Below, in pieces: positions 4,611-60,113 of a stretch of 64,000 nucleotides of DNA (its first letter is position 1; each line of letters starts with the position of its first letter). The notes beneath the pieces were generated by a model. That model did no database searches, was not told where the DNA came from, and saw nothing but the letters and a program-made list of their open reading frames with translations. Source of the stretch: Octopus sinensis (lineage: Eukaryota); the NCBI RefSeq assembly GCF_006345805.1, contig NC_043013.1:23002001-23066000 (forward strand). Reading direction: 5' to 3'. Made by a program: the position numbers and the translations under genes.

Positions 4611-4862
4611 TCCTTTGGAATAAAACCATGTTGTCTTCGAAACATATGTCGAGAGTAAAGGAATTTTGTTAACATCTTCGTTCAACTCCATTCATTTATT
4701 TATTCATATATAACACACAAATTTCTGCACATGAACCCGGAGTTTCTACCCTTGGACAGGTCGCTTCAACCGTGTTTCTGACGTGAATTTGCTACCCTGG
4801 TATCGGTTCATCGAATTTTCCATGTTGACGGTAAACATAGGATAATTCATTCACCTATCGAA

Positions 4863-19330: not shown

Positions 19331-19430
19331 NNNNNNNNNNNNNNNNNNNNNNNNNNNNNNNNNNNNNNNNNNNNNNNNNNNNNNNNNNNNNNNNNNNNNN
19401 NNNNNNNNNNNNNNNNNNNNNNNNNNNNNN
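19331..19430. other. Assembly gap (100 N)
   Basis: Run of n. Confidence 1.
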
Positions 19431-26097: not shown

Positions 26098-26847
26098 TTC
26101 CAATTGTTATTTTAAATAGTTATGAAATAAGAGTTAGAGAGAATTATTGAAGTAAGATAATCCGGTGTTGCATTATTTTCGTACAATCTTGTTGCTTCAT
26201 GGAATTACTTAGCTTAGGGCCAGCCAAACTTTCGATAGTGAAAAGCTATTTTTAATTTTATAATCTCTTAATGGCTCCAAACTTTTTCACTGTTTTTATT
26301 AAGATTCGTTCAACTAAAATAATCAGAATTATGTTCTTGGTACTCTACCTTATAAAAGTGTGCCCTGAATCTATTTATAGATAACTGTCAGACGTCAGTG
26401 CTGCATGTTAGGTGCAGAAAATAAAGTTTTCCATCTCAAACAAAAATTAAAAGTTTTAAAAAATCATTCTTGTAAAAATAGTGGTTAATGAAATCAAGAA
26501 ATCTACTCTAATAATCAACAATATTTTGTTTAATCTTTTAAAATTAACTCTGGCTCAATTGTACGCCAATTATTTATTGCATGCATTTATTTGTAAGAAT
26601 AGATTTGTTTTTTTAATATTTACTTAAAAATCAACCACGCTAGTATTTTTAGCTAATATTGCTTAATCAGATCTACCACCTATTTCGATACAATTTGACA
26701 ACGCTTATTGAAGCATTTCTTGTTTTAGATTTGACTGCATTATGCACAAGAATAATACTTCAGCAAGATATGTGAAAGAAAAATATACATTCGATATCAA
26801 TACAATATTTTCGATAATAAGCTATCTATCAAATGAAGCTAAATACC

Positions 26848-27263
26848 TATTTCTTTACTACCCACAAGGGGCTAAACATAAAGGGGACAAACAAGGACAG
26901 ACAAACGGATTAGGTCGATTACAACGACGCGAGTGCGCAACTGGTACGTATTTAATCAACCCCGAAATGATTAAAGGCAAAGTCGACCTCGGCGGAATTT
27001 GAACTCAGAACGGAACGGCAGACGAAATACTTATTTCTTTACTACCCACAAGGGGCTAAACACAGAGAGGACAAACAAGGACAGACAAACGGATTAAGTC
27101 GATTACATCGACCCCAGTGCGTAACTGGTACTTTATTTATTGACCCCGAAAGGATGAAAGGCAAAGTCGACCTCGGCGGAATTTGAACTCAGAACATAAC
27201 GGCAGACGAAATACCGCTAAGCATTTCGCCCGGCGTGCTAACGTTTCTGCCAGCTCGCCGCCT
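26848..27263 (-). mobile_element. SINE family 2 dimer with a 14-bp TSD
   Basis: Two units of about 184 bp plus the tRNA head; TSD tgaagctaaatacc at 26834-26847 and 27268-27281. Confidence 0.92.
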
Positions 27264-30050: not shown

Positions 30051-32408
30051 AGTTAAGTTTATTGAAAAAGAAACTATTTAATTGCCATTTGCATTAAATA
30101 TTTCCTAAATTTGCTGATATTTTCAAGGTTTTCGTTATGTTTTTAATAAATAAATATATAAACATATAGAAAAGAATATTTGAGATCCAATAAGGCTCCG
30201 ATTGCTAAACTTCTATTCAATGATTTTATTACATTTTCTATTTCATTATCCCATTGTTTCGGAAAACTCGACTTCAGTAATTATCCTCTCGGATGCCTCC
30301 CGAACATTTTAACAAAAGAAACGTATGAATTGCTAACGATGGAATTGTATAAATATACAAACGCTTTATTACCTTTGTGGTTGGTCATCACAATTTTCTT
30401 GTGAATACGGAAACTTTTCTGAAGGCAAATATTTAGCGGGGTGATGGTGGGGTGGGGGTCAAGGAAAATGGGTTGCTGCAAGTACTGCATTATGTGTGTA
30501 TGCACGTAGGTATGTAATATACTATGTGACGATTAGTAGGTTGCCATAGTAAAACTCAGAGTTTCGGATGTCGGGGCGGAAGTAAGGCATGTGTAAAATT
30601 TGAATGAAATCAGTTGGGTAGTTCTCGAGCTTTAGTGATGCACACATACAGACAGACACACACACATTTTATATGTATAGATATATAATATTGCCCTCTT
30701 ATAACCCCTACCAGTTCAGTCTGCATTCATCCTATACGGTGATTACACTGTTTTTCCCTCAATTTGAAAGCTTTCTGCCCTATCAGTCAGAATAAGTATA
30801 TTTGTAATGAGTTATCAGATAGTACGCTTCCCTTAGATATACTTTATACTACTTCTGAACTAAATAATTCTACATACAACAGTGCCTGTAATATTATATT
30901 TCATAAAACCGCATCCATGATATCCTTACGTTATTTCTTAATTTACTTTGTTAGGAGTACCTCGACCTATCCTTATTATTTATTTACTTATTATTATTTT
31001 GCTTTTTATTTTTATTTTCATTTTTGATTTTTTTATTATTAGTTTTAGTTTTTTGTGTATATCCAGTATGTATCTTATGGCTTCAGCAATGGAAATCATT
31101 TTTTAATCTTATATCTATTTTATCATTCTATAAATCCCTTATTGAAATTTTAGATATATGTCGTTAGTATTTCAAGATTTTTAACGTAATTTTGGTAAAT
31201 ATATTTGTTAAAATGAGATGTCGGTGTTAGTGTCATTTTTGCGTAATTTAGACAATTTATTCGCCTTGTGATTCTATTAACTCTGATGAGAGAAATAAAG
31301 AGTATTGCTATGGTCGGAGTTAGCTCGCTCATAGCAACCTATATCTTTTCGAAACGGCCGTAAGACTTTATACATGTTCCAGACTCCTTATGAATCATTT
31401 TACATCCGCTTTATCATCTTCTTCATTCGGACTTGGCAAGTACATTTACAGACTTACACTTTTTTATATATTTATATTTATGAATTTTTATATGTTTATA
31501 ATTTTTTATGTCTATGAATTTTTTTATATATTTATAAATTTTCGTGTATATGTATGTATTTATAAATTCTTAGACATTTTTAATATATCGTATAGATGAC
31601 TGCATCTGCGTATGCACTTTGTATACCAAGGATAATTTCGTTAATAAGGATTGAATGAATATATATCATCGGCCTTTGAATTTGTTTTCTCCTCTCCTTA
31701 ATTTTATACATATAAAGAGAGAGAGAGTGGGAGGAGATGCGTGTATATATAGGTGCGTATACATATGTGTGTGTACATATATATAGTTCACATGAGCGGC
31801 GGCCAAGAAAAAGAAAAGAATCACGAAATTATCAAAATATGATTTACAAGACTAACAATGGTAATAACAAGGGAGATTTTCTTTTGTTATATGAAACCAC
31901 ATCAAGTGAAGAACGAAAGAAAAGACGAAAAACTATAAAACTGGCAAATCCTTTTTGAAAAACACCACAGACTAATCGCAACATCTACAATAAAACCGTT
32001 CCACATCAAGTTGCAACCAGAACGCAGCGTAATAAATCATTTTACACCTTAAAGAATAATAAAACACAAATACATCAGAGCGATAAAACAAACTGAAAAT
32101 ATATTTTAGTAAAATTTTGAAAATAAAACACTTCAAGTTGTAAAACATCAAAGCGTCGTTCTAAAAGAAAATCTTTTAAAATTATTTTTAGTTGTACACT
32201 AAAAATGAAAAGCTGTTCCTAGTTATTATGTGTATACACACACAAACACACACGAACACACACACATGCACGCATACACACGTACGCACACACATACATG
32301 AGCACACATACACACACATACAAAGATGCGCACACATATATATATATATTGCAGATTTACATATAAATCTGCATGTGTATATATACATATACCCGCACAC
32401 ATACACAT

Positions 32409-33289: not shown

Positions 33290-33940
33290 AATCGATATTT
33301 TACATTAGATCTTCCGCACGAATTCCCTAGCCTCAAATCGACCTATCCCAAAATGATAGCTTAGTAGCATCACCCCATTGGGATACATTCCGTAAAATCC
33401 TAATCATGGACCTTAACAGATTAGGTGACTCCAAACACGCATCTATAAGACTTTCCGCAAACCTACTGAGCAATCAATACACTTCAATAGCCTCTCTTTC
33501 CACCTTCCTAATGCTTTCAGAAACTTTGTCTCAATTGTGAGTCGTAGGGTCTTTAATCTTTCATCCTCTAAGTTTATTCGTGACACTGCTCTTATAGGGC
33601 CGTGAATGTTATTTGGGTTCCTTAAACGTTAAGACCAAGGTGGGTAGAATATTCCTGGCCCTTCTGCACAGACATTTCCCGGTACAGTATCGTTATAATA
33701 AAAACTTTAGCATCCAAACAGTGAATAGAAGCTACTCCCGTGCTTCAAACATTCAACTGTTTTCAACGATTATGAACAAAGGAAGAAAAATGTCCTTTTG
33801 ATGGAGCCTGCAGCATCTCGTGTCTTTTTATGGAACAGAAATTATGTCAATCGAACCACATCAAGTAATGAGATGAAAACGCTTTGTGTCAATATGGCGG
33901 CATAACGCCGATTTATTCGACAATTCTAGAAGCATTTGGC
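33290..33940 (+). mobile_element. Decayed Penelope-like element: RT C-terminus and linker toward GIY-YIG
   Basis: VIW..SLNVKTKVGRIFLALLHRHFPVQYRYNKNFSIQTVNRSYS matches the PLE linker pattern WFNPPYSxNVKTNIGxxFLxLxxKHFP...IFNRNTVKVSYSC (recalled pattern, not a database search). Confidence 0.8.
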
Positions 33941-51748: not shown

Positions 51749-51781
<33 letters not shown>

Positions 51782-51812
51782 CATACATATATATACATAT
51801 ATATATATAATA

Positions 51813-51859
<47 letters not shown>

Positions 51860-51864
<5 letters not shown>

Positions 51865-52262
51865 AGTGAATTGAAGAGAAGTTTGGCCATGGGCTCTTAG
51901 GAGCCTCGTTCGATTTGTTTTGCTGCGCCTCTGTTCTGTTTTTGTTTTTGCCAACGGATTTCCTATTTCTTCCTGAAGAGAAAGACACAATATGGTCTCC
52001 TTATTCAATCGGAATTTGGTAAATGTGGCTTTCGAAACACGTGTAGAATGCAATAAAACGATTTCTGTTCAATCTTCGTTCAACTCCATTTCTTCAATTC
52101 ACTAATAATATTAAAATTCATTATCCGCACCAACGCATGGTTGCAACACCATATGGTTGTACCTCCAACCGTGCTGTCTTCTGCTGTGATTTTTGCTACC
52201 AAGGTATCGGTTAAACTTTTGATTAATCTGCAATAAGATTATTCATCTTTCTATTTCACAAA
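51860..52262 (+). mobile_element. TA-embedded element, family C, with an inverted terminal segment
   Basis: tattattagtgaattgaaga (51858-51877) is inverted at 52091-52110; homologous to 4611-4863; contains a full hammerhead. Confidence 0.75.
51964..52055 (+). ncRNA. Type I hammerhead ribozyme with canonical core
   Basis: CUGAAGA at 51973-51979; stem II gaaagacaca/tgtggctttc (9 of 10 pairs); GAAA at 52034-52037; stem III AC-ACGU-GU; cleavage triplet GUA (after 52045); stem I ttc/gaa plus tatt/aata. Confidence 0.8.
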
Positions 52263-52282
52263 ATATATATATATATATATAT

Positions 52283-52478
52283 GCCATGTTGAATCGTTAG
52301 CCCCTACACGCAATTTTTTTCTCTCCTTGTTTCTTTTCTGTGTATCTTTCTGTCGAAGAGCGTAGGCTCGAAACGTAAAAGACTTGTTTTATTTCTATTC
52401 CTGAGCGCCATACTAACACATTATTTGTTTGTACTCCACCTGCCTTCGTCTTTTGTTTATTTTCATAAACCTTCCCGT
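52283..52478 (+). mobile_element. TA-embedded element, family B, with a variant minimal hammerhead at 52345-52382
   Basis: tcttt-CTGTCGA-A-GAGC-GTAG-GCTC-GAAAC-GTA-aaaga, with a perfect 5-bp stem I. Confidence 0.8.
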
Positions 52479-52513
<35 letters not shown>

Positions 52514-52609
52514 TATATATATACATAACAAAGTGGAGTTGTAAGGTACCGCACGAGTGGAATTATATATGAAAGAAGGTTTGAAAATGCAGTTTTAAAA
52601 ACTGTTTAT

Positions 52610-52655
52610 TTACTTGACCGGTTTCACTTTTTTAGAAAAAGATTGTCAAAAGTAA
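52610..52655 (-). ncRNA. Type I hammerhead with U3-A8 core covariation
   Basis: Minus strand reads ttactt-TTGACAA-tctttttctaaaaaagt-GAAAC-CG-GTC-aagtaa: 6-bp stem I, palindromic ACCGGT stem III and a GUC triplet. Confidence 0.65.
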
Positions 52656-52884
52656 CATGTAAAAGCTTGGTTGTGTTAGGTACTGGTTGTCACAAAATAT
52701 TACAATACATGTATACATTCTTTGATAATAATAATAATAATAAGATGTTAAGAACAGTTTACAAGGGAAAATCTTGGGAAAATATAAAAAAGTTTAACAA
52801 GTTCATTAAAATATTGGGCACTAAAGATTACAATATGTATATACATTCTTAAGAAAATGTTAAAGACAGTTTCCAGAAAGAATT

Positions 52885-52960
52885 ATTAAAAAGTTCAGAG
52901 GAATATTCGTATTGTATATATATACAGATACAATAATAATATTCCTCTGAACTTTTTAAT
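52885..52960. repeat. Hairpin with 23-bp perfect arms
   Basis: attaaaaagttcagaggaatatt (52885-52907) and aatattcctctgaactttttaat (52938-52960), plus inner tattgtat/atacaata. Confidence 0.85.
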
Positions 52961-52964
52961 TTAC

Positions 52965-53580
52965 CCATCTCCTCGCCCAGATCAACCACGAACCTCTGAC
53001 AAGATCCTTCTCTTTGCTAAGAGAAGTGTGGAGGATAATCCTCATTGCAAGGCCTCTGACATAGCAGAACGAATTGATATCAGTCCCAGAACAGCTGTCA
53101 GGTATCTCCACAAACTTGGCTACTATGGCAGAGCAGCAACAAGCAAGCCACTTCTTCGACAGAGCCAATATCAAGCGGAGAAAGATTGTGGAGAGGCTAC
53201 TGGCATTTTGGAACACTTTCATATTCTCTGATGAGTCCAGATTTGCTGTATTTCCTGGCAGTGGCTGAGCGTAGGTCTGGAAACTCTGTGATCAAGAATT
53301 TGATGTGAAAAGATTACAGCCAACAATGAAACACGGCAACTATTCTGTGATGGCCTTGGGAGCAGTTTGGAGCAATAGTTGATCAGAGTTGGTGGAGTGT
53401 GAAGGAAACCTAAGCTCAGATAAATATGTGTTCATATTGCAGAAGGGACACCTTTCAATCTTCTCCGGTGGTGAAATGATCAAAGAAGATTCTTTATTTA
53501 TGAAAGATGGGATTCCTTGTCACACGGCTAAAATGATCCGAGATTTGTTGGATGAAAATGGCACTAAAAAACAATTACGC
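52965..53580 (+). pseudogene. Tc1-like transposase remnant
   Basis: LGYYGRAATSKPLL, FIFSDESRF, PTMKHG..SVM, LVECEGNLSSDKY and FMKDGIPCHTAK; stops and frameshifts. Confidence 0.88.
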
Positions 53581-53589
53581 TAAAAAACA

Positions 53590-54473
53590 ATTGTCAGCAT
53601 TTTTGTATCCACTTCTTCACATCTTTGTTTCTCTCGTCAAACCTTTGTCCCCTGTACTGGATCAAACAGGTGAAAGTTGAAGGGTACCAGATCCGATCTA
53701 TTCGGGGAATGTAGAACCACTGACCAGCCCATTGTCATGGTGAATGTGGATCGTTTACAGATTCTTGTTCTGTCTCCCTTTTAATGGTTTCCCTTGTCTT
53801 TTTGAGTGTTGCAATGTGCCGCTCGTTCTTTACGCTACAGCTACGTTCCAAAATATCAAGGAGAATGACGTTCATGCCATCCCAAAGAACAATCATCTAA
53901 GCTTTTGTATGACGATCACAGAGAAGCAATGTGGTACTATTCCATAGAATGAGTCTTCGTTTCCCGATCATAAAAATGCAACCACGAATCAATTCCTGTC
54001 TCCAGATCGGAAAAAAAATAACAAAACACTTGTTTTCATTGCCTTTGAGTAGATGAGAACAAACTGCCCCTATTTATCTCCTTCAAATTGAGAGTCAACA
54101 GCTGAGGTACACACTTTCTGATACCGAAAGTCTTCCACCATTGTAACGAGAGTCCAGTTATGCACTAGACTCACAGATTATGAATCGTATGTCTGCGCAA
54201 ATCGCTTCGTCCACTCGCTGGTGATTCGTGGCAGTGGTCACTGTTGGTGGTCTCCCACTGCTTGGCTTCTGAAGCCTTTTGTGAATATCAGACAGTCTGT
54301 ATCTTTCCTTCGTCAATAATTCAATGATGACGACACGTTGCTTCCGCTTGGAACCCTTTATTTGCCTGCAATGGAGAACAGGAAGAACATGTGAAATTTG
54401 AACGACATACGTCCGTTAATAAAAAAAAACAAAGTGACATTCATTTTCAGCATTACTTTCGGCACAACCCTCG
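53590..54473 (-). mobile_element. Heavily decayed mariner element
   Basis: Terminus (ta)cgagggttgtgccgaaagtaatg; remnants SGRPPTVTT, HDNG and PNRSDLVPFNFHLFDP (compare PYSPDLAPSDFHLFGP). Confidence 0.75.
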
Positions 54474-55216
54474 TAAATGCGAATACGTCTGTACGTAGTA
54501 TTTTAAGCCTGACTGATTGCCCGATAATACTCGATGCGCTATTCAAGCTCGTCCGACTGTTGTACCATCAGAAACATGAAACTTATTGTAGCTCACATTT
54601 AAATCCTCTGCATATCAAATGATATTCATCTCTCACTAAATGGAGAACTTTTTCTATTGATCCCGTCAATGACGGAACAGTACTCTATCTATTCATCTGT
54701 GTGTGTATGTGCGTGCGTGCGTATATGTGTGTGTGCATATATATGTGTGTGTGTATATATATATATATTGTATATTATATATATGTACACACACACAAAT
54801 ATGCCTACATACCTACCTACATATATACATACATACATACATACATACATACATACGTACGTACGTACATACATACATACATACATACATACATACATAC
54901 ATACATACATACATACATGCATGCATGCATACACACATTATAACGGCCATTAAGACAGAGATTTCACGCAGTCATTGCTTTTCCTTCTTCCAACGTGTAC
55001 AAACAGAAAACTGAATGTATTTACATTAGCCCATACTTTCACAGCAAGAGTTTAAAAACAGCAGATACACATCTATGCTATATATTATTATATTGTATGT
55101 CTGTCTTAAGTTGGTTTTAGATTGCCTGATAGAGGCAGTGTTATGCATAAACATGTTAGATATACAGACATTGATACATACATACATATACATACATATA
55201 TATATATATAATATAT

Positions 55217-59384: not shown

Positions 59385-60113
59385 ATTTCTTTATTGCCCA
59401 CAGGGTGCTAAACATAGAGGGGACAGATAAGGACAAACAACGGGATTAAAGCGATAACATCGACCCCAGTGCATAACTGGTATTTATTAGGTTGTCCCAA
59501 AAATTCGTAAACACTTGCTAAAATTGAATTTTTACTCGCCAAGTACTAACAAAAACAACAAAAATTATTCCTCAAAATAAAGACCATTATTTTCCAAGAC
59601 TTTCTACGAACTTTTGGGACAACCTTATATTTAAAGGACGAAAGGCAAAGTCGACCTCGGTGGAATTTGAACTCAGAACGTAGCGGCAGACGAAATACCT
59701 ATTTCTTTACTACCCACAAGGGGCTAAACACAGAAGGAACAAACAAGGACAGACAAACAAATTAAGTCGATTACATCGACCCCAGTGTGTAACTGGTACT
59801 TAATTTACCGACCCCGAAAGGATGAAAGGCTAAGTCGACCTCGGCGGAATTTGAACTCAGAACGTAGCGGCAGACGAAATACCTATTTCTTTATTACACA
59901 CAAGGGGCTAAACACAGAGGGAACAAACAAGGACAGACACAGGTATTAAGTCGATTACATCGACCCCAGTTCGTAGCTGGTACTTAATTTATCGACCCCG
60001 AAAGGATGAAAGGCAAAGTCGACCTCGGTGGAATTTGAACTCAGAACGTAGCGGCAGACGTAATACCGCTAAGCATTTCGCCCGGCAGGCTAACGATTCC
60101 GCCAGCTCGTCTC
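59385..60113 (-). mobile_element. SINE family 2 trimer
   Basis: Units 59385-59699 (interrupted by a MITE), 59700-59883 (184 bp) and 59884-60113 (carries the tRNA head). Confidence 0.92.
59487..59627. mobile_element. Mariner-derived MITE nested in the SINE
   Basis: TIRs ttaggttgtcccaaaaattcgta and tacgaacttttgggacaacctta, each flanked by TA. Confidence 0.88.

What the first reader, a model, noticed from the sequence alone, without database searches (positions are those of the whole stretch)
51964..52055. Canonical full-length type I hammerhead with a long stem II and large loop
Seen: an intact core CUGAAGA/GAAA/GUA, a 9-of-10-bp stem II closing a 34-nt loop, palindromic ACACGUGU stem III and a bulged stem I. 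The relative at 4639 has ACAUAUGU-C, a compensatory change that keeps the palindrome and a cleavable GUC. This is the best candidate in the window for an active ribozyme; predicted cut after 52045.
Basis: partly seen in the sequence, partly recalled or inferred. Interest (0 to 1): 0.75.

Follow-up and report, generated by a model that had tools for sequence, protein, structure and literature searches.

The report
Long-armed hammerhead in Hydra retrotransposon end
This is a real hammerhead (self-cutting RNA) motif in a 385-base leftover end of a young, abundant Penelope-like jumping gene, a known pairing; its second arm is unusually long, it is predicted to cut only when two copies pair up, and this particular copy is likely one of the weaker ones.

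Summary
The motif is present as described (core 51973-79, helix II 51980-52033, palindrome 52037-44, predicted cut after 52045). It is not a stand-alone canonical ribozyme. It lies in the 3' pseudo-LTR of a young Penelope-like retrotransposon with Hydra-clade features. The window holds only a 385-bp end in a TA microsatellite; a longer copy carries a 904-aa RT/GIY-YIG frame, and two loci have hammerheads on both sides of the coding region. A loose pattern finds 12,908 long-armed motifs genome-wide (control 38; short-armed 536). Helix II covaries between subfamilies, and its '34-nt loop' holds a conserved hairpin. The palindrome points to dimer cleavage. This copy has a rare 1-nt deletion (6 of 502) and a weakened helix I, and folds worst of 15 copies compared. 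Copies do not pile up at the cut site, so insertion templates look uncut. The 4639 relative lacks half the core. The family lacks the Hydra linker zinc finger yet still inserts into TA repeats. The scan has reported long-armed Hydra hammerheads several times on other DNA of this genome. Known system, modest variant; cleavage untested.

The parts
51880..52263 (+). 3' end (pseudo-LTR) of a young Penelope-like retrotransposon, main arm of the insertion
   Evidence: 98-99% identical to dispersed copies, 1,905 first-look candidates, 40 scored; fixed 3' end CTATTTCAC then TA repeat; matches the 3' end of copies with an RT/GIY-YIG frame
51857..51877 (-). 21-bp inverted stub (copy of 52091-52111), the short second arm of a head-to-head insertion
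   Evidence: inverted arms of other copies end at the same site
51964..51972 (+). helix I, 5' strand
   Evidence: sequence; constrained fold
51973..51979 (+). core C3-A9 (CUGAAGA)
   Evidence: C3, U4, G5, A6, G8, A9 invariant in 20 of 20 aligned relatives, which were picked by a pattern that fixes them
51980..52033 (+). 54-nt helix II arm: G10.1-C11.1 base, 9/10-bp proximal stem, inner hairpin 52003-52015; one T missing next to 52024 relative to the family
   Evidence: 7 of 12 pairs with two-sided changes; deletion form 6 vs full form 496 exact matches
52034..52045 (+). G12-A14, palindromic helix III ACACGUGU (52037-44) and A17; predicted cut after 52045
   Evidence: self-duplex -10.3 kcal/mol, monomer hairpin +2.4
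52046..52055 (+). helix I, 3' strand; C52051 breaks a pair that the larger sister subfamily keeps
51771..51860 (.). TA microsatellite on the left of the insertion (a TA run follows on the right from 52264)
4611..4860 (+). older relative, truncated inside helix II; keeps GAAA-ACAUAUGU-C but not the CUGANGA half
   Evidence: its surviving part resembles the subfamily of L054/L066 (by eye)

Best explanation
It is a type I hammerhead motif in the end repeat of a Penelope-like retrotransposon with Hydra-clade features, copied here as a 385-bp non-coding fragment into a TA microsatellite, and it is predicted to cut RNA after 52045 only as a pair and only weakly. Shown: element context, RT/GIY-YIG frame upstream in long copies, hammerhead-ORF-hammerhead tandems, covarying helices, self-complementary helix III. 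Inferred: two motifs, in one tandem transcript or in two RNAs, pair their 8-nt palindromes and swap helix I strands to form a double hammerhead that trims part of the element's RNA, perhaps helped by the element's protein. Inferred: reverse transcription mostly uses uncut (or re-joined) RNA, which is why copies span the cut site. This single copy has no partner motif of its own family in the window, has a weakened fold, and likely does nothing at this locus.
For: Element. The repeat lies downstream of the RT-region match, same strand, in 14 of 15 loci, and the 15th is seen in a wider fetch. 904-aa open frame ending about 575 nt before the motif. Tandems 3,713 nt (L048) and 3,320 nt (L049) apart. 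Clade: RWL, DKT, CNLC-x-x-E, N, CPH in P0002 against the Hydra description; RW[K/R] in 110 and DK[T/S] in 120 of 120 listed homologues. Structure: 87.4% of cells paired vs 33-50% for slid partners; 46 cells with two-sided changes vs 20 +/- 4 in shuffles. Palindrome centre UA 10, UG 6, CG 4 of 20. Dimer: the double hammerhead equals the best predicted dimer in 3 of 6 copies tested. Literature: dimer-dependent, weak or protein-assisted cleavage in PLE hammerheads. Uncut template: 507 of 555 copies keep the six bases before the cut; 17 junctions at the cut vs about 26 one base further on.
Against: No cleavage assay. The Hydra linker CxCx5C is absent from P0002. Pfam gave only a sub-threshold GIY-YIG hit (E 0.075) and no RT hit, so the domain calls rest on motifs and on homology. 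No tree with published Hydra proteins was built. The shuffle control ignores relatedness, and its count of pairs with two-sided change (10 vs 8.4) does not exceed shuffles. The inner hairpin is conserved but shows 0 of 5 pairs with two-sided change. Folding energies ignore Mg2+ and tertiary contacts.
Confidence: 0.8

Rival explanations
1. The family keeps the hammerhead fold as a binding or positioning signal for the element's protein, and cleavage is marginal or lost in the youngest subfamily.
For: The window's subfamily spread to about 500 copies with a broken helix I pair and a poor fold. No excess of 5' ends at the cut. In the Anolis element, core mutants did not affect insertion in vitro (PMC11167929, passages).
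Against: 12,908 motifs from families of unrelated helix sequence keep the full core spacing, palindrome and NUH triplet. Core and helices persist beside proteins only 30-64% identical to P0002.
Confidence: 0.12
2. It is a monomer-active, near-canonical ribozyme: helix III closes as 2 bp plus a tetraloop, and the long helix II docks on helix I to give fast cleavage, also at this locus.
For: Complete core. Invertebrate retrozyme hammerheads with short helix III cleave well as monomers (PMC7229834, passages). Conserved inner hairpin in helix II.
Against: Monomer helix III costs +2.4 kcal/mol. The hammerhead fold is 5-12 kcal/mol above the minimum for this copy. The palindrome is kept across four different centres, which a monomer would not need. 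Helix I is weak.
Confidence: 0.07
3. Chance arrangement of core letters in AT-rich repeat DNA.
For: No Rfam match; folding z-scores near zero.
Against: 12,908 vs 38; 0 sites in 40 shuffles; covariation; position in a pseudo-LTR as published for PLEs.
Confidence: 0.01

Closest known systems
Hammerheads of Hydra-clade Penelope-like elements, including Hydra-1_Obim of Octopus bimaculoides (Craig et al. 2021, PMC8557442; read: passages, section 11, supplementary Files S1/S2 rows and search excerpts)
   Same: Single ORF with RT then C-terminal GIY-YIG; RW[K/R]-like and DKT motifs; no CCHH; type I hammerhead near the 3' end; TA-repeat insertion; inverted 5' arms and partial tandems.
   Different: Helix II arm 54-55 nt vs 10-24 nt in the 26 Hydra rows of File S2. 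Unit about 3.6 kb and ORF 904 aa vs generally under 3 kb. Linker CxCx5C replaced by a Ser/Asn/Gly-rich stretch.
PLE-X1_sMoe hammerhead of Selaginella (same File S2, marked as deviating)
   Same: 9-bp helix II closing a 35-nt loop, 53 nt in all: a published long-armed PLE hammerhead of the same size.
   Different: Plant, endonuclease-less, 28S rRNA-targeted element of another clade; no 8-nt palindromic helix III.
Metazoan PLE hammerheads with small palindromic helix III (Cervera and de la Pena 2014, PMC4209133; read: parts 1-2 of 4)
   Same: In pLTRs, mostly as solo truncated copies, G10.1-C11.1, short helix I, longer helix II, predicted dimers, low activity in vitro.
   Different: There helix II is 6-8 bp and an extra base usually follows A9. 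Here the arm is several times longer and no extra base follows A9.
Poseidon element PAc of Anolis (PMC11167929; read: passages)
   Same: Copies span the cut site and end at fixed 3' sites, as expected if uncut RNA is the template.
   Different: Other clade; the PAc ORF starts inside the hammerhead, whereas here the ORF starts after the end of the repeat.
Canonical type I hammerheads of non-LTR retrozymes (PMC7229834, passages; bioRxiv 10.64898/2026.07.22.740005, part 1 of 5)
   Same: Type I topology, palindromic loop III as in axolotl motifs that need dimers.
   Different: Retrozymes are short non-coding tandem repeats with 6-bp/4-bp helices and loop contacts. This family is dispersed and belongs to a coding element.

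Membership tests
Hammerhead ribozyme, type I | Core C3 U4 G5 A6 N7 G8 A9, G12 A13 A14, A15.1-U16.1, H17 | tested here: met
Hammerhead ribozyme, type I | Three helices, helix I open, supported by covariation | tested here: met
   on 20 relatives; weak in this copy
Hammerhead ribozyme, type I | Self-cleavage after H17 | not testable with these tools
   no assay; no raw RNA reads offered
Canonical type I hammerhead (Schistosoma/retrozyme kind) | 6-bp helix I and 4-bp helix II with a short loop and conserved loop-loop contact; Rfam match | tested here: not met
   54-nt helix II, 3-bp proximal helix I; no Rfam hit; definition
Penelope-like element, EN+ | Single ORF with RT and GIY-YIG endonuclease | tested here: met
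   904-aa frame with FDIASFY, PMG, YRDD and VY-x(10)-YVG-x(7)-R motifs; Pfam GIY-YIG only sub-threshold; 427 homologues at E<=1e-10
Penelope-like element, EN+ | 5'-truncated copies, partial tandems forming pLTRs, inverted 5' arm, hammerhead in pLTR | tested here: met
Hydra clade of PLEs | RWK motif and DKG changed to DKT | tested here: met
   RWL (variant) and DKT in P0002; homologues RW[K/R] 110 of 120, DK[T/S] 120 of 120
Hydra clade of PLEs | No CCHH; CxxC and CxH around conserved E and N of the endonuclease | tested here: met
   CNLC-x-x-E ... N ... CPH
Hydra clade of PLEs | Linker CxCx5C | tested here: not met
   absent in P0002 and in all 39 linker readings from fetched loci (overlapping loci counted twice); present in 103 of 120 homologues. 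Filed as a Hydra-like lineage that lost the motif.
Hydra clade of PLEs | Insertion into (TA)n | tested here: met
   46 of 48 main arms followed by TA repeats
Hydra clade of PLEs | RT groups with published Hydra proteins in a tree | not tested
   published sequences seen only as supplement excerpts; likeness to Hydra-1_Obim judged by eye
Non-LTR retrozyme | Short non-coding tandem repeat with one hammerhead per unit | tested here: not met
   dispersed end of a coding element

The most novel reading that the evidence does not exclude
Octopus Hydra-type retrotransposons have evolved a class of protein-switched double hammerheads. The 50-65-nt helix II, kept by many unrelated families, is a docking arm for the element's own protein. 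The youngest master transcript starts at the 51880 equivalent, so two hammerheads 3.7 kb apart pair in one RNA. The same lineage shows that TA-microsatellite targeting does not need the linker zinc finger proposed to cause it.
Probability: 0.15. Interest if true: 0.62.

Novelty: new variant of a known kind. Interest (0 to 1): 0.3.

Why it matters
Hammerheads in Penelope-like elements are known, but their role is unsettled. This genome offers over ten thousand long-armed motifs that Rfam misses, with natural strong and weak versions in one young family, which is good material for testing dimer cleavage and protein help. The family also separates TA targeting from the linker zinc finger. The single copy in the window is one of hundreds and matters little on its own.

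Tried and rejected
Rfam: no hammerhead family at E<=1 (window) or E<=10 (581 nt). Unconstrained folding does not give the hammerhead and z-scores are near zero. Pfam, PDB: no RT match for P0002; no significant Pfam match for 5 homologues. Pile-up of 5' ends at the cut site: suggested by 6 arms that begin at or within 4 nt of the cut, rejected. 17 of 27 non-A matches at the cut are junctions, against 15 of the 30 examined (of 53) one base downstream, on 3,661 A-preceded matches; junctions hidden by a chance A were not counted. Expression: no RNA holder listed. Contigs of runs guessed to be RNA cover the repeat but cannot show ends, strand or locus; laying runs on the downstream flank 52530-54690 was uninformative. 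Whether the two 1-nt deletions of this copy (near 52024 and 52119) are real or assembly errors could not be settled. Retrozyme reading rejected for this family. Literature searches for a described long helix II or a cephalopod PLE hammerhead found only PMC8557442 as directly relevant; subscription papers are not held, the RNA Biology paper on dimeric PLE hammerheads (recalled) was not available, and most supplements were not read. Sequence look-up in earlier findings gave nothing.

Full report
Observation. A strict scan finds only this site in the window. A relaxed scan finds 3 sites, and none in 40 block shuffles. Rfam does not detect it and unconstrained folding does not produce the hammerhead. 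The relative at 4639 has the stated palindrome but begins inside helix II after a TA repeat and lacks the CUGANGA half.

Context. The motif lies in a repeat with 1,905 first-look candidates in the 2.72-Gb genome; the 40 scored full-length matches are 98-100% identical. The genome is likely an octopus (recalled from size and repeat content; no call names it). Copies share one 3' end and vary at the 5' end, often with an inverted second arm. In 93 arms from 60 loci, 3' ends fall at two sites: about 60-68 nt after the cut for inverted arms (41 arms) and at the end of the repeat for main arms (48 arms), 46 of which run into TA repeats. The window copy is 51880-52263 with a 21-bp inverted stub at 51857-77, inside a TA microsatellite.

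Parent element. Longer copies carry, upstream on the same strand, a frame with RT and GIY-YIG motifs. One copy has it uninterrupted, 904 aa from the first Met, ending about 575 nt before the motif; the unit is about 3.6 kb. Two loci show motif-ORF-motif tandems 3,713 and 3,320 nt apart. The protein has RWL, DKT and CNLC-x-x-E...N...CPH, matching the Hydra clade as described in PMC8557442 section 11, and resembles Hydra-1_Obim by eye. It lacks the clade's CxCx5C linker, which 103 of 120 listed homologues have. Pfam gives only a sub-threshold GIY-YIG hit. I file it as Hydra-like; no tree was built.

The long arm is general here. A pattern with 40-70 nt between the core halves and an ACANNTGT helix III matches 12,908 times (reversed control 38); with 9-39 nt it matches 536 times (control 29). 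Fetched examples fall into several families with unrelated helix sequences, arms of 49-65 nt, and Hydra-like coding remnants 30-64% identical to P0002 beside some of them (L066, L079, L084, L086, L100, L103). In 20 aligned relatives that I chose for diversity within the nearest group, 87.4% of cells pair (slid controls 33-50%), 7 of 12 helix II pairs and 2 of 5 helix I pairs change on both sides, and the palindrome centre is UA, UG or CG. The inner hairpin is conserved without two-sided changes. The 26 Hydra rows of the published table have arms of 10-24 nt, but the same table lists a Selaginella PLE hammerhead with a 53-nt arm, so the design has a precedent outside the clade.

Mechanism. Helix III cannot close beyond 2 bp in one molecule (+2.4 kcal/mol), while two palindromes pair at -10.3. 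A hand-built double hammerhead equals the best predicted dimer in 3 of 6 copies (L044, L058, L067) and lies 3.8 (L099), 6.4 (L002) and 8.4 (window) kcal/mol above it in the others. Published PLE hammerheads cleaved weakly and only as multimers or with helix III extended (PMC4209133), or only with the element's protein (PMC11167929). Dimer cleavage is therefore inferred, not shown.

This copy is weak. It lacks one T in helix II, a form seen in 6 exact matches against 496; public contigs mostly show the T. Its subfamily (555 matches, of about 3,700 with the sister form) has an A-to-C change that breaks a helix I pair. Its hammerhead-fold probability is the lowest of 15 copies at each of three flank lengths. 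These are secondary-structure energies only.

Does cleavage shape the insertions? If cut RNA were copied, insertions would start at 52046. A few do, but junctions at the cut (17 of 27 candidates) are no more frequent than one base later (15 of 30 examined, 53 in all), and 507 of 555 copies keep the six bases before the cut. Templates thus look uncut or re-joined, as reported for the Anolis element. A different boundary stands out. Among loci most like the window copy at the 3' end, 15 of 58 arms start within 18 nt around the 51880 equivalent, against 27 over the next 148 nt; in two unselected samples it is 2 of 11 and 3 of 36.

Verdict. A real hammerhead motif in a known setting, the end repeat of a Penelope-like element. 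The long structured helix II and the lost linker motif make the family a variant worth a bench test. Earlier unchecked notes of the scan describe long-armed Hydra hammerheads on other DNA of this genome; my reading was formed before I saw them. Interest 0.3.

Noticed in passing
window 31283-31356 (+): A second long-armed hammerhead-like motif: CUGAUGA, 61-nt helix II arm, palindrome ACGGCCGU, A17; helix I only 2 bp. A Hydra-like coding remnant lies at 33429-33856 (+); no link shown.
   Followed up: partly
window 52345-52380 (+), 40345 (+), 58460 (+), about 58680 (+), 22421 (-), 4191 (-): Minimal hammerhead-like motifs ending in CGAAACGU-A/U/G with a 4-bp helix II, from at least two other repeat families; those at 52369 and 40345 have an altered core (UCGAAGA).
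   Followed up: no
L169:1530-2088 (G000:C1, near 123,774,000): Both arms of a head-to-head insertion join the same 280-nt GC-rich foreign sequence at the predicted cut site (1 nt of overlap). Could be a cut RNA joined to another RNA, or a template switch; one event only. Rfam gave only hairpin-driven matches below threshold.
   Followed up: partly
P0002 residues about 640-790; L039: The Hydra linker zinc finger is replaced by a Ser/Asn/Gly-rich stretch, yet 46 of 48 main arms end in TA repeats.
   Followed up: partly
window 51880; L116-L145: Shared 5' boundary of many young copies at GTTTGGCC, about 165 nt before the cut; possible RNA start.
   Followed up: partly
L099 (G000:C1:22,010,500-22,014,500): Three tandem long-armed hammerheads 533-535 nt apart plus one inverted copy, from another family; retrozyme-like.
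   Followed up: no
window 50017 (+): CGAAACAAUUGU-A palindrome without an intact CUGANGA upstream; likely a decayed hammerhead.
   Followed up: no
window 26841-27215 and 59633-60067: Two arrays of the same 184-bp unit; recalled as part of a cephalopod SINE, not checked.
   Followed up: no
window 19331-19430: 100 N (assembly gap or withheld stretch).
   Followed up: no
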